From Acidobacteriota bacterium (GTDB taxonomy: Bacteria; Acidobacteriota; Blastocatellia; RBC074), in the NCBI GenBank assembly GCA_037439425.1, contig JBBIWA010000009.1, positions 30,822-94,821 on the forward strand: a stretch of 64,000 nucleotides of DNA. The letters are read 5' to 3'. Made by a program: the position numbers and the translations under genes. Shown here one piece after another: positions 903 to 60,718 of the stretch. The notes beneath the pieces are model-generated. The model searched no databases. It worked only from the letters and a program-made list of their open reading frames with translations, and was not told the origin of the DNA. Position 1 is the stretch's first letter. Each line of letters starts with the position of its first letter.

Positions 903-1075
903 CTGTATTCTCCTTCCGGCGGCGGATTCAAGTTGTTGTCTGATACTAGAAGACTGCAGCACCTGATGTCAATCAAACTGCCTGGCCTCTGGGAGCGTGG
1001 GTTGTGTGCTTGGTCTTTGGTGAGTGGGTCAGTGATCGAAACTGGCACGCTCTCAAGCGTTCGCTCCTAGGGTCT

Positions 1076-1212
1076 TCTGAGGAGTCTTTCATGTCGCGCT
1101 GCGACGCGGGAGAGACGATCAAACCCTCACGAGCGCAGGCTGATCTAGCGCGCAAGATCTTCAGCCCCAATGAGCACGCAAGGATGCGTGCGCTCCCAGG
1201 GATTTTCGGAGG
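1076..1212 (+). repeat. Type-1 structured repeat, copy A (degenerate left arm)
   Basis: gaggagtctttcATGtcgcgctgcgacgcgggagagacgatcaaaccctcacgagcgc...gagcacgcaaggatgcgtgcgctcccagggattttcggagg. Confidence 0.75.
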
Positions 1213-1337
1213 AATCAGGAAGAGACAAAAGTTTTACTATCCCAGGCAACAGTTTTGCCACATCTGGTTGCCAGCATGAGGCCGCCTCGGCAGCTTACGA
1301 CCTAAACAGCAGAGCGATTATCGAGGAATTAGCTACC

Positions 1338-4392: not shown

Positions 4393-4637
4393 CTGATCAA
4401 GAACCCGGTCGTTCATCTCTGTCACACTGCTGTGGACCTCTCACTCCTGAAGCTTGTCGGGTTTGACTGTACTCCGCTTCCTCCGTCGCAACCTCGTCCT
4501 ACACTTGTAGCGGGGGCAAGAGCCAAGACAGGGGCCAACTAACCACTTGGCCCGGCATTTTCTAAGGCGCGTCTGGTCTCGCTCAATGCAACTCAAAAAG
4601 CGACTGAGACTGGAGCCAAGCGAGCTACGAGCAGCGA

Positions 4638-4875
4638 CCTCAATTCCAGATGCCACGAGCTTGCTTCGTGGAGCAAAGCGAGCAGCGAGCGGCGACCTCA
4701 ATTCCAGATGCCACGAGCTTGCCTCGTGGAGTTTCACGCTGCGTAGCTATCCCACTGCCTCGCTCAATTCCAGATGCCACGAGCTTGCCTCGTGGAGTTT
4801 CACGCTGCGTAGCTACTCCACCGCCTCGCTCAATTCCAGATGCCACGAGCTTGCCTCGTGGAGTTTCACGCTCAC
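4638..4875 (+). repeat. Four tandem units (57, 67, 67 and ~47 nt) each containing a 35-nt hairpin-bearing core ctcaattccagatgccacgagcttgcctcgtggag. Not CRISPR
   Basis: Cores at 4638, 4695, 4762 and 4829. The inter-core segments are pairwise near-identical, so the true unit is a higher-order tandem duplication. Confidence 0.8.
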
Positions 4876-5195
4876 GGCTACTCTCACCTAGCTTGCCAAC
4901 GTGAATCTCCGCGAGCCAAGCTCGCGGCATCCTGGAAATTCGTTCCCGCCGATTGTAGCTGCCACCGTAACCATCCCCGGCGCGAGGCCGGGGCATTTGT
5001 CCCGATCTTGTTTGTTTTGATCGAACCTCGTGGAGCTTCGCGCTGGCAGCTAAGGCGCCCGGCTCACTGACAAAGTTATGGATATACTTGCGAATCTGCA
5101 GGCTGGTCAGATCGCCATAGCTACTAATATAAGCGCTCGGCTGCCACTTCTTTCCACAGCTGCTCGACTCCTGCTGCAAAGGCTATCTCCTGATC

Positions 5196-14578: not shown

Positions 14579-14669
14579 GTATAAGTGTAACGGTATGAGT
14601 AATGGCTGCCGCAGTGAGCAGCCAGCAGCGAGCAGTGCTGTATGAGTGTAACGGTATGAGTAATGGCTG
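14579..14669. repeat. Two direct copies of a 30-nt motif (gtatRagtgtaacggtatgagtaatggctg) about 60 nt apart
   Basis: Seen directly at 14579..14608 and 14640..14669 inside the long 13922-15098 spacer. Confidence 0.7.
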
Positions 14670-14785
14670 TCGCCCGTTTCACGGGCTGGGAATCATTTGT
14701 CCATCCCCTCCCAGGGTTACGCGCTGCGCGCTCCAAGCTGGGCTTTAAGCTGCTGCCCGCATTCGCGGGCTGTGGAATGGACCAT

Positions 14786-15006
14786 CAGCCCGCGCACGCG
14801 GGCAACAGTATAGAGCCTGGGGTGACTTGCGGATTGCGGATTGCGGGTTTGCCAGGCAGGCGACAGCTTGCTGTGATCGGTTGGGCTCTTTTTTCAGCCC
14901 GCGCAGGCGGGCAACAGCATAGAGCCTGGGGTGCAAACCCCAGGAACGAGCAACCACCAAATCGAGCGAGCCCGCGCACGCGGGCGATAGCACATAGCCT
15001 GGGGTG
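14786..15006. repeat. Three copies of a 39-nt palindromic-core repeat (cagcccgcgcacgcgggcaacagtatagagcctggggtg), with a degenerate fourth upstream. Spacers are 70 and 34 nt. CRISPR-like in appearance but not called CRISPR
   Basis: Repeats at 14786..14824, 14895..14933 and 14968..15006, with a degenerate copy at about 14753. Each carries a gcccgcgcacgcgggc hairpin and is followed by a second small hairpin. Spacing is irregular and no cas genes are in the window. Confidence 0.6.
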
Positions 15007-15063
15007 CAAGCCCCAAAACGAGCTTGATACCTACCAAGTCCTACTTGGCGCACCGGGGGCTCT

Positions 15064-15092
15064 TTGCTCATTAGGGGCGAGAGCGGTAGAAT
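15064..15092 (+). promoter_or_regulatory. Putative sigma70-type promoter (TTGCTC-17 nt-TAGAAT) 6 nt upstream of the ATG, implying a leaderless or near-leaderless mRNA for the RDD gene
   Basis: Hexamers read directly: -35 at 15064..15069, -10 at 15087..15092, ATG at 15099. Confidence 0.35.
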
Positions 15093-15098
15093 CCGGCT

Positions 15099-15932
15099 AT
15101 GGCCGAGGAGACTCTGATCATCGAAACGCCCGAACATGTTCAATTGCATTTCGCGCTTGCCACGATTGGCAATCGGTTCCTCGCCTGCTTTATCGACCAC
15201 GCGCTTCAGGCACTGGCGATAGTGATGACCTTCATTCTGGCTTACAATCTGAGCGCGGGGGTGCGCCGCTTGAGTGATCAGGCGGTCAGTGGCCTCGAAG
15301 AAGGTAGTTTGTGGATTCTGGCGCTGGCGGTGCTGGCAATCTTCGGGCTTTACTTTGGGTACTTCGCCATCTGGGAAACGCTCTGGAGTGGGCAGACTCC
15401 AGGCAAGCGGTGGCTCAAGCTGCGCGTCATCAAAGATGATGGTCGCCCGCTGGATTTCTTCGCGGCGCTGACGCGCAATCTGCTACGCCTAGCCGACATG
15501 ATGCCGATGATTCCGCCGCTGCCATTCTATTCGGTCGGGATTGTCTCGGTCTTCGCCAGCACCCACTCAAAGCGCCTGGGCGATTTCGTCGCGGGCACAG
15601 TGGTCATTAAAGAACGCAGCGCCGAAGCCCCTTCCTTTGATGAGGTCTTTGAGAGCGCAGTGATTGATACAGCAATGCGCCGGGTAGCCCCGGCGGTTGA
15701 TTTCCGCGCTGATGTGCGCCTGCTTGCGCCCACAGAGATCGAAGTGGTCGAGGCTTTTCTGCGCCGACGTTACGATCTGCCAGAGGATCCGCGCCAATGG
15801 CTCGCCTGGCGCATTGCCACGCCGCTGCTGGAGAAGCTCCGTCCCTACTACGACCCCAATAATTTCAATTACGAAGGCTTCCTGGAAGAACTCCTCGCCC
15901 GTTACCGCGCCCAAGTCAGGTATCGCGAGTAA
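15099..15932 (+). CDS. RDD family membrane protein
   Basis: N-terminal RDD-like domain (FLACFIDHALQALAIVMTFIL ... RLGDFVAGTVVI) with TM helices, plus a C-terminal soluble extension. Confidence 0.7.
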   Translation: MAEETLIIETPEHVQLHFALATIGNRFLACFIDHALQALAIVMTFILAYNLSAGVRRLSDQAVSGLEEGSLWILALAVLAIFGLYFGYFAIWETLWSGQTPGKRWLKLRVIKDDGRPLDFFAALTRNLLRLADMMPMIPPLPFYSVGIVSVFASTHSKRLGDFVAGTVVIKERSAEAPSFDEVFESAVIDTAMRRVAPAVDFRADVRLLAPTEIEVVEAFLRRRYDLPEDPRQWLAWRIATPLLEKLRPYYDPNNFNYEGFLEELLARYRAQVRYRE

Positions 15933-23065: not shown

Positions 23066-23223
23066 TGACCAAAGAAGCCTAAATCCCCGGTTAAGGACGC
23101 GAATCGGACATTTTCCGCAGAGGTAGTTTATGTCGTCACGGACGACGCGAGAGAAATACTGAAGACCCGGAAGCGCAGGCTTGCGAGCGTGCAGGATTTT
23201 CAGTCGAGTTAAGTCGGCACCTG

Positions 23224-34282: not shown

Positions 34283-34433
34283 GGAGGAGTCTTTCATGTC
34301 GCGCTGCGACGCGGGAGAAATGATGAAACCCTGGGTACGCACGCTTGCGAGCGTGCTTGGTCTTCGGTAATGGCTTGCTTAACGAAGGTAGGCACGCAAG
34401 GATGCGTGCGTACCCAGGGATTTTCCGCAGGAG
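34283..34433 (+). repeat. Type-1 structured repeat, complete unit B1. It has a 5' module with SD+ATG, about 28-bp palindromic terminal inverted repeats, and a 3' tail cccagggattttccgcaGGAG
   Basis: Sequence: ggaggagtctttcATGtcgcgctgcgacgcgggagaaatgatgaaa CCCTGGGTACGCACGCttgcgaGCGTGC ... GCACGCaaggatGCGTGCGTACCCAGGG attttccgcaggag. The arms are reverse complements of each other, and each arm contains a 6-bp hairpin. Confidence 0.85.
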
Positions 34434-34574
34434 TCATTCAGCTCGCGCTGCGACGCGGGAGAAATGATGAAACCCTGGGTACGCACGCTTGCGAGCGTGC
34501 TTAGTCTGAAGATGAGGGCGCGCTTAATGGAAATAGGCACGGCCGGCGTGCCTACCCAGGATTTTCCGCAGGAG
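34431..34574 (+). repeat. Type-1 structured repeat, unit B2, in direct tandem with B1. Its GGAG tail is the Shine-Dalgarno of rplI
   Basis: Near-identical to B1 (the ATG of the 5' module is mutated to AGC). It ends ...cccaggattttccgcaggagaaacaattATG(rplI). Confidence 0.85.
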
Positions 34575-34582
34575 AAACAATT

Positions 34583-35056
34583 ATGGCGATGATGGAGCTT
34601 TTGCTCTGTGAAGATGTCGAGCATTTGGGGGCGCGTGGAGACCTGGTCAAGGTGCGCGCCGGGTATGGACGCAATTACCTGCTGCCACGCGGGCTGGCTG
34701 TCCAAGCCACCCCATCGAATATCAAACAGATCGAACGGCAACGCCGCGCGCTGCTGAAAAAAGCAGCGGCTGAACGCGCGACCGCAGAGCAGCAGGCGGA
34801 GTTGCTCAAAGAAGTGACGCTGGAATTTGTCCGCAAGGTAGGCGCCCACGGTATCCTTTACGGTTCAGTCACCGCGATGGATATTGCCGAAGAACTCCGG
34901 GCGCGGGGCTACGAAATTGATCGCAAACGCATTCAACTGCCGGAGCCGCTGAAAGAAATCGGCCAGTACCAGGTGCCGATCAAGTTGCACCGTGAAGTCA
35001 TCGCGACTCTCCAGGTAGTGGTCAAGGGCGAAGAGGAGCAGAAGAAGAGCAGATGA
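34583..35056 (+). CDS. rplI: 50S ribosomal protein L9
   Basis: MELLLCEDVEHLGARGDLVKVRAGYGRNYLLPRGLAV is the L9 N-domain. Confidence 0.9.
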   Translation: MAMMELLLCEDVEHLGARGDLVKVRAGYGRNYLLPRGLAVQATPSNIKQIERQRRALLKKAAAERATAEQQAELLKEVTLEFVRKVGAHGILYGSVTAMDIAEELRARGYEIDRKRIQLPEPLKEIGQYQVPIKLHREVIATLQVVVKGEEEQKKSR

Positions 35057-44295: not shown

Positions 44296-44470
44296 CCTTT
44301 TCTCGGAAAATCAGACCTGCGGACTTTTCCTCCTTTCTCCCACGCTGCGCGGGCAGCATGCAGAGCTCCTCGGAAGAGCCTGGGAGCGCACGCATCCTTG
44401 CGTGCTGCGGCTTCGATCAGCGGGCTGCTGCCTGAAACCTGGCACGCTAGAAGCGCGCGCTCCCAGAAGC
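44296..44470 (-). repeat. Composite type-1 repeat (one full unit plus a type-1b partial unit) in reverse orientation, between convergent genes
   Basis: The reverse complement of 44378..44470 aligns with unit C2 (cctgggt..gcacgcttctagcgtgc...gcacgcaaggatgcgtgcgctcccagg). The reverse complement of 44296..44378 aligns with the copy at 41432. Confidence 0.8.
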
Positions 44471-55433: not shown

Positions 55434-55700
55434 GGATTTCCCTTTGCTTACCCGTTCTGGAGTAGGAAGAGTTTAACCCGATTAGGAAGCCGGATCAACG
55501 AAGCTGCAAACACCAACTGGCCTATCAACCTTAAGCCCCCGCTCTTTACTTGCAGCACGCAGGCTTGGTGATATAATCTGGCGCCTCACAGCAATTTCGT
55601 CTCTCAATCCTATGTTTTATTCGATCACTCCTAGCTGAGCTATGGTGAGGAGCCACATTTTTAGGGGAGCACTTTTACCGCAGTTTGATGATCTTCAACG

Positions 55701-55795
55701 CCTGGGCAGGCACGTTTGCGAGCGTGTCAGAGTTCGGACAGCAACCCGCTGGCCGCGGGTACGCAAGGATGCGTGTACTCCCAGGGATTTCCTAA
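55701..55795 (+). repeat. Type-1 structured repeat, unit C1 (TIR-to-TIR portion)
   Basis: cctgggcaggcacgtttgcgagcgtg ... gggtacgcaaggatgcgtgtactcccagggatttcc. Confidence 0.8.
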
Positions 55796-55900
55796 GCCTG
55801 GGTAACGCACGCTTCTAGCGTGCTTGCTCTGCGGTAATAGCCTACTCGACGAAGACAGGCACGCAAGGATGCGTGCGCTCCCAGGATTTTCCGAAGGAGG
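55796..55900 (+). repeat. Type-1 structured repeat, unit C2. Its tail ccgaaGGAGGaaacc supplies the RBS of the TonB-dependent receptor gene
   Basis: agcctgggtaacgcacgcttctagcgtgc...aggcacgcaaggatgcgtgcgctcccaggattttccgaaggaggaaaccATG. Confidence 0.8.
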
Positions 55901-55905
55901 AAACC

Positions 55906-58900
55906 ATGAAACAACTGCTCCTGACATCAATTCTATTGACCGTTTGCTGCTCTCTGGCGGTGGAGTCAGCCAGGGCGCAGGGTTTCACTGCTACTATTCG
56001 CGGCACGGTGACTGATGCAACTGGTGCGGTCGTTCCAGGTGTAACCATCACCGTGCAGAATGCTAATAAGGGCTGGACCAGAACAGCTACGACCAACGAA
56101 TCTGGCGATTATGTCGTCACCCAGTTGCCTGTAGACACTTACACTATCACGGCGCAGATGACCGGATTCAAGACCGAAGTGCGGCAAGGCATCGTCTTGC
56201 AAGTCGGGCAAGAAGCGCGCATCGACTTCAGTCTGGGTGTGGGCAGTACGGAAGAGAAGATCATCATCGCGGCAGTAGCGCCGCTGGTGCAGTCCGAAAA
56301 CGCGATGGTCGGCAATGTCATTGACGAGCAGAAGGTCAAAGAGCTGCCGCTTAATGGGCGCATCTTCTGGCAACTGGCGCAACTGGCGCCCAATGTCTTC
56401 AATCCGCCGCAAGGCTCCACGCTCGGCTTCCGGGGCGGATTCAACGTGGCGGGCAATCCAGAGGTCAACAACAACTTCATTCTGGACGGCATTGACAACA
56501 ATGATGAGACCACCGCGCAGCCTACGCATCGTCCCTCGATTGATGGCATCCGCGAGTTCAAAGTGTTGACCGGTATCTACAGCGCCGAGTATGGACGCCA
56601 ATCAGGTGGACAGATTGTCATCACCACTAAATCAGGCACCAATGAATATCACGGCACCGTCTTTGAATTCCTGCGCAATGACAATCTCGACGCGCGCGAC
56701 TTCTTCATGCGCGCCAGACCAGGCCAAAAACGCCGTTCTGAACTGCCTGAGCTGAAGCGCAATCAGTTTGGCGCATCCGGCGGTGGCCCGATCATCAAAG
56801 ATCGAACTTTCTTCTTCGGCACTTACGAAGGCTTGCGGCTCAGCGAGGGCGTGGCCAGATTGGGAAGTGTGCCGACGGAAAAGATGCGTCGCGGTGATCT
56901 CTCCGAGCTGTCAGGCACGATTCGCGATCCCCAAACGGGTCAGCCATTCCCCAATAATCTCATTCCAGATAGCCGGATTCATCCCACCAGTCGCGCCCTG
57001 CTTCAGTACTGGCCTTTGCCGAACCAGCCTGGAACAGTCAATAACTTCGCTTTGAACCGGGTGCGCACGGAGAATCAGAATCAGTTCTCAGTCAGGATAG
57101 ACCACAAGTTTTCCGACAAGAACAATTTCTTCGGCAGCTATCAGTTCAATCAGCGTAAGAGTTTCGAGGCCTCAAACCCGCTGTGCGGCTCGCGCGTGCT
57201 TCCGCAATTCGGGTGCACCGAGCCGGAGCGCACGCAGCATATCTCGCTGGTTGACACCCACGTTTTCACTACGCGGCTGCTGAACGAATTCCGCATCGGT
57301 TATAACCGCATGCGCACCAATCGCTTTCAGGAAGATATGATCCTGGGCAATGTGGTGCAGAAGCTGGGAATACCGCAAGGTGGAGCCAATGGGCTGGCCG
57401 GGCCCGATTTCTTCAACACTGGTGTCCCTGAAGTGGTAGTCACGGGATTGGCGACTATTGGTGGGCCGACCAATCTGCCTCAAGGGAGAAGAACCAACAC
57501 CTACAACATCGTAGATAACATCACCTACACCTGGGGCAACCACACGATCAAAGGCGGGTTTGACTACAAACATTTCATCTTCAACTCTTTCTTCACCCAG
57601 GATGGGCGTGGCAACTTTACTTTTAACGGGCAGTTTACCGGCAATGCCTATGCTGATTTCTTGCTTGGCTTGCTGCGCTCGACACGACGCGCGCCGGGCC
57701 TGCCCTTCTCAAATACCTTCACCTCTTCGCACGGCTACTATGTGCAGGATGACTGGAAGGTGACGCAGAAGTTGACGCTCAATTACGGCCTGCGTTATGA
57801 GCTGAGCTTCCCTGAACTGGAGCGCGTCAATAAGATGTCGAGCTTCGATCCCAAGACGGGGCGCGTGCCGGTGGCGGATGGCCGGTTGCTCGATGTTGAT
57901 ACTGCCACTGGCAATTTGATCACCGTTGGCCAATCACCCCTGGGGCGCAGGCTGTGGAAGCTGGATAAAAACAACTTCGCTCCGCGCTTCGGCTTTGCCT
58001 GGCGGCCATTTGGCGATAATCGCACTGTGGTCCGCGGTGGCTATGGCATCTTCTACAACCACATCGTGGCTGGTAACGGGCTGTCGCCGATGTTCCGTGG
58101 AATCCCTTTCCGCTTCCGCCAAACCTTCACAAACACGACGACCCGTGTGATCGCCACTTGGGAGAATCCTTTCCCCTCCGGAGTAGCTGTTGGGGGCTTC
58201 ACTCCAGAAGGGATCAATCCCGACTTCCCATCAGCTTACATCCAACAGTGGAGCCTGGGTATTCAACGTGAGTTGACACCCAATCTGGTAGTAGAGGCGA
58301 CCTATCTTGGATCGAAGGGGACTCACCTGCCCTTGATCTTCAATATCAATAAACCCACACCGGGGCCGGGTACGATTCAACCCCGTCGCCCATATCCCCA
58401 GTGGAGCAGCATCAACTGGCGCGATGCCGTAGGGACCTCAAATTTCAACAGTCTGGCCTTGCGCCTGGAGCATCGCTTCTCGCATGGACTGTCAGCTTTA
58501 GTCTCCTGGACGATCTCCAAGTCCATAGACTTGGGAGCGCCGCCATCCACGAGTGGTACTGGCGAAGCTGGCGTTCAGGATCCAAGGAACTTAAGGGCTG
58601 AGCGCGGGCTGTCCGAATTCGACTCGCGCCATCGCTTCATCACCAGCGTCGTTTACGAGCTGCCCTGGGGGCCTGGCAAACGCTGGTTCAGTAGTGCGCG
58701 CGGCGTGTTAGCTCAGATCGTCGGTGGCTGGCAAGTGACAGGCATTTTGCTGTTGCAATCGGGCAGACCTTTTACGGTCATTACCAGCAGGGATATTTCC
58801 AACACCGGCGGAGCGAACCGGCCTAACCTGATTGGCAACCCGAAGCTAGACAAGCCGACGCCGGAGCGGTGGTTTAATACCGACGCTTTCTCTGATACTC

Positions 58901-59166
58901 TGCCCGCAGGCACCTTCGCTTATGGCACTGCCGGTAAGAACATCGTCATTGCTGATGGGATTGAGAACTTCGACCTGGGGTTATTCAAGAACTTCAACAT
59001 TGACGAGCAACGCAAGCTGCAATTCCGCGCCGAGGTCTTCAATTTCCCCAACCATCCCAACTTCGGCATTCCGGACCGCAACCGAGCGTCTAGCTCTTTT
59101 GGCAGAGTAGGCTCTACGATCACTTCAAGCCGCCAGATTCAATTCGGGTTGAAGTTCATCTTCTAA
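55906..59166 (+). CDS. TonB-dependent receptor, Oar-like (CarboxypepD_reg-like N-domain plus plug/barrel), paralog of 44556..47975
   Basis: MKQLLLTSILLTVCCSLAVESARAQGFTATIRGTVTDATGAVVPGVTITVQNANKGWTRTATTNESGDYVVTQLPVDTYTITAQMTGF. The C-terminus ends QIQFGLKFIF. Confidence 0.85.
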   Translation: MKQLLLTSILLTVCCSLAVESARAQGFTATIRGTVTDATGAVVPGVTITVQNANKGWTRTATTNESGDYVVTQLPVDTYTITAQMTGFKTEVRQGIVLQVGQEARIDFSLGVGSTEEKIIIAAVAPLVQSENAMVGNVIDEQKVKELPLNGRIFWQLAQLAPNVFNPPQGSTLGFRGGFNVAGNPEVNNNFILDGIDNNDETTAQPTHRPSIDGIREFKVLTGIYSAEYGRQSGGQIVITTKSGTNEYHGTVFEFLRNDNLDARDFFMRARPGQKRRSELPELKRNQFGASGGGPIIKDRTFFFGTYEGLRLSEGVARLGSVPTEKMRRGDLSELSGTIRDPQTGQPFPNNLIPDSRIHPTSRALLQYWPLPNQPGTVNNFALNRVRTENQNQFSVRIDHKFSDKNNFFGSYQFNQRKSFEASNPLCGSRVLPQFGCTEPERTQHISLVDTHVFTTRLLNEFRIGYNRMRTNRFQEDMILGNVVQKLGIPQGGANGLAGPDFFNTGVPEVVVTGLATIGGPTNLPQGRRTNTYNIVDNITYTWGNHTIKGGFDYKHFIFNSFFTQDGRGNFTFNGQFTGNAYADFLLGLLRSTRRAPGLPFSNTFTSSHGYYVQDDWKVTQKLTLNYGLRYELSFPELERVNKMSSFDPKTGRVPVADGRLLDVDTATGNLITVGQSPLGRRLWKLDKNNFAPRFGFAWRPFGDNRTVVRGGYGIFYNHIVAGNGLSPMFRGIPFRFRQTFTNTTTRVIATWENPFPSGVAVGGFTPEGINPDFPSAYIQQWSLGIQRELTPNLVVEATYLGSKGTHLPLIFNINKPTPGPGTIQPRRPYPQWSSINWRDAVGTSNFNSLALRLEHRFSHGLSALVSWTISKSIDLGAPPSTSGTGEAGVQDPRNLRAERGLSEFDSRHRFITSVVYELPWGPGKRWFSSARGVLAQIVGGWQVTGILLLQSGRPFTVITSRDISNTGGANRPNLIGNPKLDKPTPERWFNTDAFSDTLPAGTFAYGTAGKNIVIADGIENFDLGLFKNFNIDEQRKLQFRAEVFNFPNHPNFGIPDRNRASSSFGRVGSTITSSRQIQFGLKFIF

Positions 59167-59417
59167 CCCTTTCCACCTGACTCCTCCATAAGTCGCGCGG
59201 GCATCTCAGGGGATGCTCGCGCGACCAATTCTCTTCATCTGACAAGCCCGCCCGAGCTGCTCTCCCTTGACCTAAAGACGCTCCCTACCGTTCGTGGTAC
59301 TGATTCGGGGAGCAAGAGGCTTCCTCCAGGTCGCGGTACTTCGGGCAGCGATCAGTACTGCGACCGGTAGGGGACGGTCTCTTTTCCCCGATTTCTTAAA
59401 CTCTTATAGCGCGCCAG

Positions 59418-59498
59418 CTCTTGGGCACCGCGCGTGCTGATGGAAGCCAAGCACGCAAGGATGCGTGCGCTCCCAGGGTTTTTCTGAGGAGCAAGGGG
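59418..59498 (+). repeat. Type-1 structured repeat, shortened copy D
   Basis: ctcttgggcaccgcgcgtgc-tgatggaagccaa-gcacgcaaggatgcgtgcgctcccagggtttttctgaggag. Confidence 0.7.
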
Positions 59499-59507
59499 TA
59501 GAGTAGC

Positions 59508-59541
59508 CAGACCTCAGACCTCAGACCTCAGATTTCAGACC
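59508..59541. repeat. Tandem octamer cagacctc x3.5
   Basis: cagacctcagacctcagacctcagatttcagacc, read directly. Confidence 0.7.
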
Positions 59542-59704
59542 AAAGAAGTGGAGGAGTGCAACGAGTGAGCGAGTGAAGGGGTGGAAGAGTAAGAGAAGTG
59601 GATCGCTGGCTCGGTGGAGAAGCAGAGTGCAGGAGTACAAAAACAGTACGAATCCGAAATGAAGCCGATCTCCAGTTGATGGATGTCTGGCCGAACCATC
59701 ATAG

Positions 59705-59712
59705 TGTATAAT
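59705..59712 (+). promoter_or_regulatory. Extended -10 element TGTATAAT 10 nt upstream of the DUF433 ATG (near-leaderless transcript)
   Basis: tagTGtATAATggtgtgcactATG. The hexamer overlaps the first in-frame ATG (59711), which argues for ATG 59723 as the true start. Confidence 0.45.
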
Positions 59713-59722
59713 GGTGTGCACT

Positions 59723-60061
59723 ATGAGCACGCTTGAGACCAAACAAGATGTACCTTTGACGCTCTGGGAAGATGGCTCGATCCGCATCACAGGCTCGCGG
59801 GTCACGTTGGAGGCCATCGTCCACCAATTCAAACTCGGCGCGACGGCGGAACAGATTCAGGATAGCTTTCCCTCGCTTACGTTGCAGCAGATCTACGGGG
59901 CGATCTTCTACTACTTGGCCAATACCGAAGCCGTAGAAAAATATCTCAGCCAACGAGAAGAGGCCGCCGCCGAGGGACGACGCTTCATCGAGAGCCATTT
60001 TGATACCACGACGTTGCGGGCGCGGATCCGCGCGCGGCGCGACCAACTGGTGAAGAAATAA
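59723..60061 (+). CDS. DUF433 domain protein (putative antitoxin-like partner)
   Basis: ITGSRVTLEAIVHQFKLGATAEQIQDSFPSLTLQQIYGAIFYYLAN fits the DUF433 pattern. Confidence 0.7.
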   Translation: MSTLETKQDVPLTLWEDGSIRITGSRVTLEAIVHQFKLGATAEQIQDSFPSLTLQQIYGAIFYYLANTEAVEKYLSQREEAAAEGRRFIESHFDTTTLRARIRARRDQLVKK

Positions 60062-60091
60062 AGTCCCGGGTTGGCGCTCGAATCTGCCGCG

Positions 60092-60439
60092 ATGCGCTTT
60101 CTGACAGACGAAAATTTCAATCATCGCATCCTGCGCGGCTTGAAGCTTCGGGTTCCCAGTCTCGATTATATCGTGGCCCAAGAGACGGAGCTTCAAGGAA
60201 CCAAAGACCCAGTAATGCTCGCCGGGGCGGCAGAGCAAGGCCGGATTCTCCTCACTCACGACGTCAGCACCGTTCCGAAATATGCTTACGAGCGCATCGC
60301 TGCTGGCCAGATCATGCCTGGGGTGATCATCGTCCCGGAGACACTGCCTATTGGGCAGGCCATTGAAGAGCTCGTCACCGTCATCGAGTGCTCTGAGCAG
60401 AGCGAATACGAGAATCAAGTCGTCCATCTTCCGTTGTGA
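60092..60439 (+). CDS. DUF5615 (PIN-like) domain protein (putative toxin-like partner)
   Basis: MRFLTDENFNHRILRGLKL...GRILLTHDVS fits DUF5615. It lies 30 nt downstream of the DUF433 gene. Confidence 0.7.
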   Translation: MRFLTDENFNHRILRGLKLRVPSLDYIVAQETELQGTKDPVMLAGAAEQGRILLTHDVSTVPKYAYERIAAGQIMPGVIIVPETLPIGQAIEELVTVIECSEQSEYENQVVHLPL

Positions 60440-60469
60440 AATGGCGGCTCAATGAGATGAAACCTTTAA

Positions 60470-60592
60470 GAGGGAGGAGCGCGAGAAAGGGGAGAGGGAG
60501 AAAGGGAGAGGGGGAGCAGGGGAGCAGCACGATTGCGGATTGAAGGGAAGGGGGAAGGGAAAAAGGGAGAAAGGGGAAAAGGACTCTCTCTG
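60470..60592 (+). repeat. About 120-nt GA-rich polypurine tract with more than 20 GGA/AGGGA motifs
   Basis: agggaggagcgcgagaaaggggagagggagaaagggagagggggagcaggggagcagc...gaagggaagggggaagggaaaaagggagaaaggggaaaagga. Minus-strand ORFs here are just translations of the pyrimidine strand. Confidence 0.8.
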
Positions 60593-60640
60593 GTTTTCTC
60601 CGGGAAGCGCCCCCGAATACAGTGGCGCCATGATCTGCCG

Positions 60641-60682
60641 AGTCATTCATGTCGCGCTGCAACGCGCGGAGGGAGGTCGTTA
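60641..60682 (+). repeat. Type-1 structured repeat, 5'-module fragment E (gagtcattcATGtcgcgctgcaacgcgcggagggagg)
   Basis: Matches the 5' module of units A and B1, including the SD+ATG start MSRC(N/D)A. It lies 35 nt upstream of the CRTAC1 gene SD. Confidence 0.65.
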
Positions 60683-60718
60683 TCTGCCTGAGTTTTAAAA
60701 TTCGCGGAGGAGGCTCAG

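What the first reader, a model, noticed from the sequence alone, without database searches (positions are those of the whole stretch)
55701..55900. Tandem type-1 repeat forms the entire 5' leader and SD of an Oar-like TonB-dependent receptor gene
Two head-to-tail units end in ...gcacgcaaggatgcgtgcgctcccaggattttccgaAGGAGGaaaccATG, where the ATG is the start of the 1087-aa TonB-dependent receptor. The same arrangement precedes rplI. Two unrelated genes therefore receive their RBS from the element tail, in both cases after a tandem dimer. The stable stem-loops placed immediately 5' of the SD could modulate translation or mRNA stability.
Basis: seen in the sequence. Interest (0 to 1): 0.7.

Follow-up and report, generated by a model that had tools for sequence, protein, structure and literature searches.

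The report
Palindromic repeats inserted at ribosome-binding sites
Two copies of an undescribed hairpin-forming repeat from soil Acidobacteria (class Blastocatellia) sit just upstream of a receptor gene's ribosome-binding site, but relatives show the gene already had that site, so the repeat preserves it rather than donating it.

Summary
The sequence observation is real. Two head-to-tail ~96-nt units (55701-55796, 55797-55892) are followed by GAAGGAGG-AAACC-ATG, the start of a 1086-aa Oar-like TonB-dependent receptor. A similar dimer (34290-34574) precedes rplI.

Each unit is an inverted pair of GC-rich hairpins that folds into one ~90-nt hairpin, like a REPIN or BIME. The 27-nt core GCACGCAAGGATGCGTGCGCTCCCAGG is identical in at least six Blastocatellia species-level genomes. 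This lineage adds a tail, (G)ATTTTCC-GnAGGAG. The GGAG is part of the repeat, because it is also present where no gene follows.

The claim that the genes receive their RBS from the element is only nominally true:
- A close relative has an empty rplI site, TAG-14 nt-GGAGGAG-AAACAAGT-ATG. The window's 285-nt insertion sits exactly after that GGAGGAG and ends in GCAGGAG, so the spacing is unchanged.
- Receptor orthologues have AGGAGG-type or GGGAGG SDs 5-8 nt before the ATG, without the element.
- Predicted RBS accessibility is the same with or without the units.
- A conserved promoter-like site lies about 125 nt upstream of unit 1, so the repeats are not the whole leader.

Best reading: a new REPIN-like family that inserts at GGAG and regenerates it. 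No transposase was found and no function was shown.

The parts
55550..55577 (+). Promoter-like site: -35 TTGCAG (55550-55555), 16-nt spacer, extended -10 TG-a-TATAAT (55569-55577). The predicted transcription start is near 55584.
   Evidence: Read. It is conserved in L029, and TGATATAG follows TTGACA upstream of orthologues L031, L040 and L041. The consensus scan did not call it because the -35 matches only 3 of 6 positions. This is an inference, not a mapped start.
55585..55700 (+). Non-repeat part of the predicted leader, conserved with the closest relative.
   Evidence: Alignment A1. No Rfam match.
55701..55796 (+). Unit 1. Left hairpin GCACGTTTGCGAGCGTG, spacer, right hairpin GTACGCAAGGATGCGTGTAC, then CTCCCAGG and tail GATTTCCTAAG (no GGAG).
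   Evidence: nhmmer E = 1.7e-20. RNA fold -40.8 kcal/mol, z = -2.3. Its first half is orthologous to L029 473-544.
55797..55892 (+). Unit 2, an intact inverted hairpin pair (CCTGGG...CCCAGG) plus the T-rich tail ATTTTCC.
   Evidence: nhmmer E = 3.8e-28. RNA fold -50.4 kcal/mol, z = -6.6. It is 85% identical to rplI unit a.
55893..55900 (+). GAAGGAGG. This is both the end of the element tail and the Shine-Dalgarno sequence (AGGAGG at 55895-55900), 5 nt before the ATG.
   Evidence: AAGGAGGAAA is shared with L029, where the sequence just upstream is different.
55906..59166 (+). Oar-like TonB-dependent receptor gene, 1086 aa.
   Evidence: PF13620, PF13715, PF25183.
34283..34289 (+). GGAGGAG, the original rplI SD, now stranded at the 5' edge of the insertion.
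   Evidence: The empty site in L034 reads ...TATCGGAGGAG|AAACAAGTATG.
34290..34433 (+). rplI unit a (144 nt): 5' module, inverted hairpin pair, tail ending GCAGGAG.
   Evidence: (-59.4 kcal/mol, z = -8.6).
34434..34574 (+). rplI unit b (141 nt). It ends in GCAGGAG (34568-34574), 8 nt before the rplI ATG at 34583.
   Evidence: The inserted length is 285 nt, which equals the 314-nt spacer minus the 29-nt empty spacer.
1006..1217 (+). A third dimer: a degenerate unit with tail TGAGGAG, then 5' module, unit and tail GGAGGA. It lies about 120 nt upstream of the likely start of a PilZ-domain gene.
23101..23205 (+). Partial copy: ATTTTCCGCAGAGG, then a 5' module with compensatory stem changes, then one hairpin. 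It lies 36 nt after the stop of a methyltransferase gene.
44326..44468 (-). A unit with tail CTCTTCCGAGGAG, followed by a module resembling the 5' module. It lies between two convergent genes.
   Evidence: (-66.3 kcal/mol, z = -5.5).
59397..59491 (+). A unit with tail GTTTTTCTGAGGAG and no start codon after it. It lies beyond the receptor gene's own terminator-like hairpin (59192-59225).
60643..60675 (+). An isolated 5' module (TCATTCATGTCGCGCTGCAACGCG) preceded by a degenerate TGCCGAG.

Best explanation
The units belong to an undescribed family of REPIN/BIME-like palindromic intergenic repeats from Blastocatellia (Acidobacteriota). Each unit is two inverted GC-rich hairpins whose outer ends are CCTGGG and CCCAGG. 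Together they fold into a single ~90-nt hairpin.

In the window's lineage the unit has gained two additions:
- a 3' tail, (G)ATTTTCC-GnAGGAG, which is a short T-tract plus an SD-like motif;
- often a 5' hairpin module, TCTTTCAKGTCGCG...GGGAGAAATGATGAAA.

The elements land, or are retained, immediately 3' of a GGAG, and they end in GGAG themselves. When the GGAG they land behind is a gene's Shine-Dalgarno sequence, the gene keeps an equivalent SD at the same distance from its ATG. Because each insertion recreates the target, later copies can land behind it, which would explain the head-to-tail dimers.

At the receptor gene the two units lie inside a 5' UTR that was lengthened from about 40 nt to about 320 nt. 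They fold on themselves and are predicted to leave RBS accessibility unchanged.

Shown:
- the repeat family and its anatomy;
- the hairpin folds;
- the exact empty and filled rplI sites;
- SDs in orthologues at the same spacing.

Inferred:
- mobility and GGAG targeting;
- the position of the promoter;
- near-neutrality for expression.
For: Family and anatomy:
- 9 units at 6 window loci.
It is usually found as inverted pairs 50-60 nt apart.
- Folds of -40 to -66 kcal/mol, with z down to -8.6.
- Short-read contig L032 starts and ends inside two of the repeats, as expected for multi-copy DNA.

GGAG is part of the repeat:
- It is present after tails that are not followed by a gene.
- Seven of the 8 copies of the 5' module are directly preceded by a GGAG/GAGG-containing heptamer. 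The eighth (60643) has a degenerate TGCCGAG.

Insertion at a pre-existing SD:
- L034 is the empty site. The window and L033 carry different fills at the same nucleotide.
- L033 and L034 are about 98% identical in the flanks yet differ in occupancy.
- The window and L033 fills are only about 60% alike, whereas other spacers are 92% alike.
- L029 differs from the window by about 166 nt lying between GAGGAG and AGGAGG.

Ancestral SD of the receptor gene.

Unchanged RBS opening energy.

Dimers are not local duplications.
Against: - No transposase (RAYT, Y1 or other) was identified. A crude tblastn with a recalled IS200 TnpA found nothing in the 337 kb held, which says little about a single-copy gene.
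- There is only one clean empty/filled pair. The two fills share architecture, so an old insertion followed by gene conversion, plus a slippage deletion between GGAG repeats in L034, would also fit.
- The unit 1/unit 2 junction at the receptor gene (…CCTAAG|CCTGGG…) has no GGAG, so GGAG targeting does not explain every junction.
- Perfect conservation of the 27-mer across species hints at a constraint beyond selfish spread.
- All five window loci where orientation is informative point the same way as the neighbouring gene, which hints the same.
Confidence: 0.6

Rival explanations
1. The elements have been co-opted as functional leaders. They supply the working RBS and their hairpins tune translation or protect the mRNA 5' region, for example against 5'-end-dependent decay. 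On this view the element is under selection at these genes.
For: - The SD next to each ATG is physically the element's terminal GGAG.
- Very stable hairpins lie directly 5' of the SD.
- In other Blastocatellia MAGs the same hairpin ends 7-26 nt before the start codon of a long ORF at about 13-14 of about 33 sites.
- Element orientation matches the neighbouring gene at all informative window loci.
- The 27-mer is invariant across species.
Against: - The empty rplI site has an equal or better SD (GGAGGAG against GCAGGAG) at the same spacing.
- Orthologous receptors manage with ~40-nt leaders and their own AGGAGG-type or GGGAGG SDs.
- Occupancy differs between genomes that are 98% identical, and the leader content differs between the window and L029. 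That is turnover, not conservation.
- Predicted RBS opening energy is unchanged.
- Copies also lie between convergent genes and beyond terminators.
Confidence: 0.2
2. The units act as transcription attenuators or terminators. A long GC-rich hairpin followed by (G)AUUUUCC would stop or pause RNA polymerase, and the following GGAG would re-establish translation. On this view the element is an intergenic 'stop plus RBS' cassette.
For: - A T-run follows every intact unit in this lineage: ATTTTCC, GTTTTTCT, GGTTTTCT.
- Three copies sit in 3' regions of genes.
Against: - There are only 4 T's in most tails, below the consensus used by the scan, which did not call the unit ends.
- The receptor gene has its own terminator-like hairpin upstream of the 59397 copy.
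- Two strong terminators between rpsR and rplI, or in front of the receptor gene, would silence them, and no promoter-like site lies downstream of the units.
- The family in other species lacks the T-tract (where matches stop near model position 93).
Confidence: 0.1
3. The repeats are not mobile DNA. They are recognition sites for a conserved DNA- or RNA-binding protein, marking a regulon or a chromosome-structuring system. They would be kept by selection and spread by recombination.
For: - The 27-mer is identical in six species-level genomes.
- Positioning is consistent between a stop codon and the next gene's SD.
Against: - The flanking genes are functionally unrelated: ribosomal protein, receptor, PilZ protein, kinase, nuclease.
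- Presence or absence varies between near-identical genomes.
- There are arrays of up to 7 or more copies with identical short spacers (L028, L006).
- Degenerate copies decay in place (L029, L033).
Confidence: 0.1

Closest known systems
REP / BIME / REPIN elements mobilised by RAYT (TnpA-REP) transposases (E. coli, Pseudomonas, Stenotrophomonas)
   Same: - Short GC-rich extragenic palindromes, present as single copies, inverted doublets that form a larger hairpin, and mosaic clusters.
- High copy number, and location between co-directional genes.
- Vertical persistence of one sequence type across related species.
Background from PMC6006769, PMC3337134 and PMC3733652. Anatomy here.
   Different: - The conserved foot is GGAG-C (GCTCCCAGG on the other strand), not GTAG/GTGG or CGTC.
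- No RAYT was found.
- This lineage's units carry a T-tract plus an SD-like tail and an extra 5' module.
- One insertion is mapped exactly behind a Shine-Dalgarno sequence.
Neisseria REP2 repeats and Borrelia IR-A/IR-B
   Same: These are dispersed repeats lying immediately upstream of unrelated genes. They contain internal stem-loops and a ribosome-binding site (PMC3184786, read). This is the known precedent for a repeat unit that carries the RBS.
   Different: - REP2 also carries a promoter and the ATG, and has no terminal inverted repeats.
- Here no promoter-like site is found inside the units.
- The ATG is the gene's own.
- The gene had an SD before insertion.
IS200/IS605-family single-strand transposition (IS608, ISDra2)
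   Same: Works alike on paper. These elements have subterminal hairpins, insert 3' of a specific 4-5-nt target, make no classical target duplication, and excise seamlessly (background in PMC6006769). Compare the GGAG always at the left flank, the GGAG at the right end, and the seamless empty site.
   Different: No TnpA was found. Cleavage sites and strand bias could not be tested. A 4-5-bp target duplication by another kind of transposase, or slippage between GGAG repeats, fits equally well.
MITEs such as Correia (Neisseria) and ERIC/IRU (enterobacteria)
   Same: Elements of about 100-150 nt with terminal inverted repeats. They are co-transcribed with neighbouring genes and fold into long RNA hairpins that can alter mRNA processing (own knowledge, and PMC3184786).
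   Different: No parent insertion sequence is known. The flanking repeat is an SD motif rather than TA. The ends themselves form separate REP-like hairpins.
MIRUs of Mycobacterium tuberculosis (own knowledge, not checked here)
   Same: Tandem intergenic repeats inside operons that are positioned with respect to the translation signals of the flanking genes.
   Different: MIRUs are described as carrying small ORFs that overlap the neighbouring stop and start codons. Here the only ATG in the 5' module is not conserved (ATG, AGC or AGG), and the units are palindromic.

Membership tests
REP/REPIN (RAYT-associated) | Short (20-40 nt) GC-rich imperfect palindrome, extragenic, in many copies | tested here: met
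   The core is an 18-nt hairpin, GCACGCAAGGATGCGTGC, plus a foot. There are 9 units in 64 kb and 28 or more loci in other genomes. All are intergenic.
REP/REPIN (RAYT-associated) | Two REPs in inverted orientation that form a larger hairpin (REPIN) | tested here: met
   The CCTGGG...CCCAGG units fold as single ~90-nt hairpins, z = -4.6 to -8.6 for intact copies. Inverted pairs occur in L002, L014-L016, L025 and L027.
REP/REPIN (RAYT-associated) | Conserved GTAG/GTGG (or CGTC) tetranucleotide at the 5' foot of the hairpin | tested here: not met
   The foot reads GGGAGC-hairpin (GGAG plus 1 nt). There is no GTAG, GTGG or CGTC. The definition is from PMC6006769 and PMC3733652.
REP/REPIN (RAYT-associated) | A cognate single-copy RAYT gene flanked by the same REPs (a REPtron) | not testable with these tools
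A crude tblastn with a recalled IS200 TnpA gave no hit in 337 kb. Candidate ORFs between REP copies turned out to be an ORF of about 309 aa that reads like a metallo-beta-lactamase-fold hydrolase (judged from its sequence, not scanned) and an ORF with no Pfam or NCBIfam match.
MITE | Terminal inverted repeats | tested here: met
   Ends of 15-27 nt are reverse complements, for example CCTGGGTACGCACGC and GCGTGCGTACCCAGG.
MITE | Target-site duplication of fixed length flanking each copy | tested here: inconclusive
   GGAG-type motifs flank the rplI insertion (GGAGGAG...GCAGGAG). However, the 3' copy recurs as GCAGGAG or GCAGAGG at three sites, so it looks element-borne. The unit 1 to unit 2 junction lacks it.
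MITE | A parent insertion sequence with the same ends | not testable with these tools
   None is present in the sequence held.
Neisseria REP2-type 'promoter + RBS + ATG' repeat | RBS inside the repeated unit | tested here: met
   GGAG follows the tail in about 10 of 14 copies, including copies without a gene.
Neisseria REP2-type 'promoter + RBS + ATG' repeat | Promoter and start codon inside the repeated unit | tested here: not met
   No promoter-like site is found in the units. The start codons belong to the genes, because the flank is identical in the empty site.
Intrinsic terminator | GC-rich hairpin followed at once by a U-rich tract of 5 or more U's | tested here: inconclusive
   The hairpins are strong, but most tails have only 4 T's (ATTTTCC). 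The scan did not call the unit ends.
Any Rfam RNA family | Match to a curated covariance model | tested here: not met
   Only a tRNA reaches the gathering score in the window. Permissive hits in the region are sub-threshold miRNA-hairpin models.

The most novel reading that the evidence does not exclude
The Shine-Dalgarno sequence is itself the transposition target of a GGAG-footed, REP-like single-strand element.
- The hairpin foot (CUCC/GGAG) would act as the guide.
- Insertion would occur 3' of GGAG, and the element would end in GGAG.
- Every insertion would then rebuild a working RBS and a new target.

This would explain three things: the tandem arrays, the seamless empty site, and the pattern across Blastocatellia in which the hairpin sits 7-26 nt before many start codons. 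That pattern could amount to a lineage-wide layer of 5'-proximal RNA structure next to ribosome-binding sites.
Probability: 0.2. Interest if true: 0.7.

Novelty: new variant of a known kind. Interest (0 to 1): 0.4.

Why it matters
If GGAG/SD targeting holds genome-wide, this would be a mobile repeat that spreads through transcribed, even ribosomal, operons at low cost, because it rebuilds the ribosome-binding site it interrupts. That would be a tidy answer to how dense bacterial genomes tolerate hundreds of such insertions.

It would also extend REP/REPIN biology to Acidobacteria, with a foot motif outside the GTAG/CGTC classes. And it offers natural with/without pairs (rplI in genomes about 98% identical in the flanking ~6 kb) for measuring what a -50 kcal/mol hairpin placed directly 5' of an SD does to expression.

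As it stands, the finding is a well-documented but probably near-neutral repeat insertion, not a case of genes acquiring their RBS from an element.

Tried and rejected
- **Rfam.** Both the gathering-threshold and the permissive searches gave no family.
- **Literature.** No paper contains the 18-mer or its complement, and none links Blastocatellia with palindromic intergenic repeats.
- **Metagenome scan for core plus tail.** One hit, in an unrelated context and uninformative.
- **Transposase search.**
  - tblastn with a recalled IS200 TnpA gave nothing.
  - The 242-aa ORF at 59699-60427(-), which lies between two element pieces, has no Pfam or NCBIfam hit. It is antisense to a DUF433/DUF5615 gene pair, so it is probably not a gene.
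  - The ORF between REP copies in L015 reads like a metallo-beta-lactamase-fold hydrolase, judged from its sequence only.
- **SD sequestration by the tail.** UUUUCC can pair with GGAGGA, but opening energies with and without the units differ by no more than about 1 kcal/mol for the SD and about 1.6 for the wider start region, so there is no support.
- **A mini-ORF in the 5' module (SD plus ATG).** Its ATG is replaced by AGC or AGG in other copies, while the stem shows compensatory changes. It is therefore a hairpin, not a coding sequence.
- **A promoter inside the units.** None found.
- **The dimer as a local tandem duplication.** Rejected, because unit 2 is closer to an rplI unit than to unit 1. 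Tandem Repeats Finder did not report the region either.
- **A true empty site for the receptor leader.** Not found. L029 also carries units, and the more distant orthologues are not syntenic upstream.

Full report
**1. The observation**

The quoted sequence is exact.
- Unit 1 is 55701-55796 and unit 2 is 55797-55892.
- They are followed by GAAGGAGG (55893-55900), AAACC, and ATG at 55906.
- The ORF from this ATG ends at 59166. It is 1086 aa and has a signal-peptide-like N-terminus. The listed 1097-aa ORF starts at a GTG inside the hairpin.
- The product carries CarboxypepD_reg, CarbopepD_reg_2 and OMP_b-brl_4, the Oar-like TonB-dependent receptor architecture.

The repeat is not a chance resemblance.
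- The 27-mer GCACGCAAGGATGCGTGCGCTCCCAGG occurs six times in the window at up to 3 mismatches, against none in 100 shuffles.
- An HMM built from seven copies finds nine units at six loci.
- Tandem Repeats Finder does not report the pair, because the two units are only 69% identical.
- Unit 2 is 85% identical to a unit at rplI. The 'tandem dimer' is therefore two family members side by side, not a local duplication.

**2. Anatomy**

Each unit reads CCTGGG-nnn-[GCACGC-loop-GCGTGC]-spacer of about 35 nt-[GCACGCA-AGGA-TGCGTGC]-GnT-CCCAGG.
- The two ends are reverse complements over 15-27 nt.
- The whole unit folds into one ~90-nt hairpin of -40 to -66 kcal/mol, with z = -4.6 to -8.6 for intact copies.
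- RNAalifold recovers the two small hairpins, with two pairs kept through double changes.

Downstream of CCCAGG this lineage has a tail, (G)ATTTTCC followed by GnAGGAG.

Many copies also carry a 5' module, TCTTTCAKGTCGCGCTGCGACGCGGGAGAAATGATGAAA.
- It is a hairpin whose stem shows compensatory changes (GTCGCG/CGACGC against GTCGTC/GACGAC).
- Its ATG is not conserved.
- The rplI units (144 and 141 nt) include this module. The receptor units do not.
- A third dimer lies at 1006-1217.

**3. Distribution**

All came from six Blastocatellia, Pyrinomonadaceae or Acidobacteriota MAGs.
- In those genomes the motif forms inverted pairs 50-60 nt apart and short-period arrays. These match model positions 3-93 only, so they lack the tail.
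- In co-directional gene pairs the pairs often begin within a few nucleotides of the upstream stop codon.
- At about 13-14 of about 33 sites they end 7-26 nt before the start codon of a long ORF. This figure is descriptive. I did not build a proper null.
- No Rfam family matches, and no paper in the library contains the 18-mer.

**4. Is the SD element-borne or native?**

The GGAG is part of the repeat.
- It follows the tail at 1195-1213, 59472-59492 and 44379(-), where no gene starts.
- It is present at internal junctions of arrays.
- Seven of the eight copies of the 5' module are directly preceded by a GGAG/GAGG-containing heptamer. The eighth (60643) has a degenerate TGCCGAG.

The genes nevertheless had their own SD.

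rplI:
- Its gene neighbourhood is pth-rpsF-rpsR-rplI.
- The closest relative L034 (GCA_053490555.1; rplI 93.9% nt identity) has a 29-nt rpsR-rplI spacer: TAG-ccaatctacttatc-GGAGGAG-aaacaagt-ATG.
- The window has the same flanks, with 285 nt inserted exactly after GGAGGAG. The insertion ends in GCAGGAG, which keeps the 8-nt spacing.
- L033, a metagenome contig about 98% identical to L034 in the flanks, has a different 257-nt fill at the same nucleotide, ending in TGGGAG.
- The window and L033 fills are only about 60% alike, while neighbouring spacers are 92% alike. This site has therefore seen more than one event.

Receptor gene:
- L029 comes from the same MAG as L034, and its protein is 96% identical to the window's. 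It shares the promoter-like site, the first ~115 nt of the leader and the first half of unit 1.
- It then differs. It has about 166 extra nt, beginning with a 5' module, between ...GGTTTTCTGAGGAG and AGGAGG-aaata-ATG.
- AAGGAGGAAA and ATGAAAC are shared by both genomes, whatever lies upstream.
- Orthologues at 77-80% identity carry no element. They have GGGAGG or AAGGAGG 5-8 nt from the ATG. In L031, L040 and L041 the leader is only about 40 nt, after TTGACA-17-TGATATAG.

**5. Leader and expression**

- TTGCAG-16 nt-TG-a-TATAAT at 55550-55577 is conserved with L029 and resembles the orthologues' promoters. The consensus scan missed it because of the weak -35.
- If this site is used, the leader is about 320 nt and the units make up about 60% of it.
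- No promoter-like site lies within or after the units.
- I computed the ensemble energy needed to open the SD.
  - Receptor: 4.8 kcal/mol with both units and 5.7 without them.
  - rplI: 3.0 in the window, 2.0 in the empty L034 site and 1.4 in L033.
  - The wider start regions also agree to within about 1.6 kcal/mol (receptor) and 2.8 kcal/mol (rplI).
- The units fold on themselves and do not measurably mask or expose the RBS. The small UUUUCC/GGAGGA pairing seen is not decisive.
- The tails have only about 4 T's, so terminator function is doubtful.

**6. Mechanism**

The best-supported reading is a mobile or recombinogenic REPIN/BIME-like family.
- Its units sit 3' of a GGAG and end in GGAG, so insertion behind an SD preserves translation signals and recreates the target. 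That would explain the head-to-tail arrays.
- The constant left flank, the element-borne right-end motif and the seamless empty site resemble IS200/IS605-type target logic (background: PMC6006769).
- A 4-5-bp target duplication, or slippage between GGAG repeats across a hairpin, fits as well.
- The hairpin foot is GGAG-C rather than the canonical GTAG. No transposase was found in the DNA available.
- The unit 1 to unit 2 junction lacks GGAG, so not every junction is explained.

**7. Comparison and verdict**

- In structure the nearest families are REP/BIME/REPIN elements. Here the palindrome, copy number and doublet hairpin features are met, the GTAG tag is not met, and the RAYT is untestable.
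- In the specific sense of a repeat that carries an RBS, the nearest are Neisseria REP2 and the Borrelia IR repeats (PMC3184786). Those differ in also carrying a promoter and the ATG.
- This is a new, undescribed variant of a known kind.
The inference that the genes obtain their RBS from it, and that the repeat is the whole leader, is not supported.
- Interest is moderate. It rests on the exact SD-site insertion and the natural empty/filled pairs.

Noticed in passing
L001-L028 (for example L019 4130-4232, L026 6401-6508, L018 5007-5098): In other Blastocatellia MAGs the same inverted hairpin pairs almost fill the spacers between co-directional genes. They start 1-10 nt after the upstream stop codon and end 7-26 nt before the next start codon. 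In a few cases the terminal AGG of CCCAGG runs into the SD (CCCAGGAGGTCGTTATG in L021, CCCAGGGAGAAAATTATG in L006).
   Followed up: partly
window 59230-60700, compared with L029 4060-4283: The window has about 1.3 kb between the receptor gene and the FG-GAP/ASPIC gene that the closest relative lacks. This stretch holds a repeat unit, purine-rich low-complexity tracts (59508-59600, 60483-60590), a DUF433 gene (59711-60061), a DUF5615/PIN-like gene (60071-60439) that together look like a toxin-antitoxin pair, and an isolated 5' module.
   Followed up: partly
window 55585-55700: The ~115-nt leader segment upstream of the repeats is about 90% conserved with L029, including GAGCTATGGTGAGGAGCCA[C/T]ATTTTTAGGG. 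It has no Rfam match and its role is unknown.
   Followed up: no
L029 4125-4240 and L033 2780-2810: The relative carries a second hairpin family (GGCGAAGCGGTCCGTTTCGCC / GGCAAAGCGGTCCGCTTTGCC). One copy lies downstream of the receptor gene and another lies inside the L033 rplI fill, so the fills are mosaics of several repeat types.
   Followed up: no
window 14787-15015: Three copies of a 47-nt repeat (AGCCCGCGCAGGCGGGCAACAGCATAGAGCCTGGGGTGCAAACCCCA) at irregular spacing (109 and 73 nt). They lie inside or overlap an ORF (14663-15277) that has no Pfam match.
   Followed up: no
window 4611-4894: Tandem arrays with 58-nt and 66-nt periods (CTCAATTCCAGATGCCACGAGCTTGCCTCGTGGAG...), 92-97% matches, unrelated to the family studied here.
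   Followed up: no
L032 (Logan SRR11582143 contig, 3609 nt): The only short-read contig that carries the identical receptor protein starts inside unit 2 and ends inside the 59397 unit. Assemblies break at these repeats, so MAGs will under-report them.
   Followed up: partly
L035 and L036, 3783 onward: In a more distant relative the dnaB gene downstream of rplI encodes a 1379-aa product with two intein/LAGLIDADG insertions.
   Followed up: no
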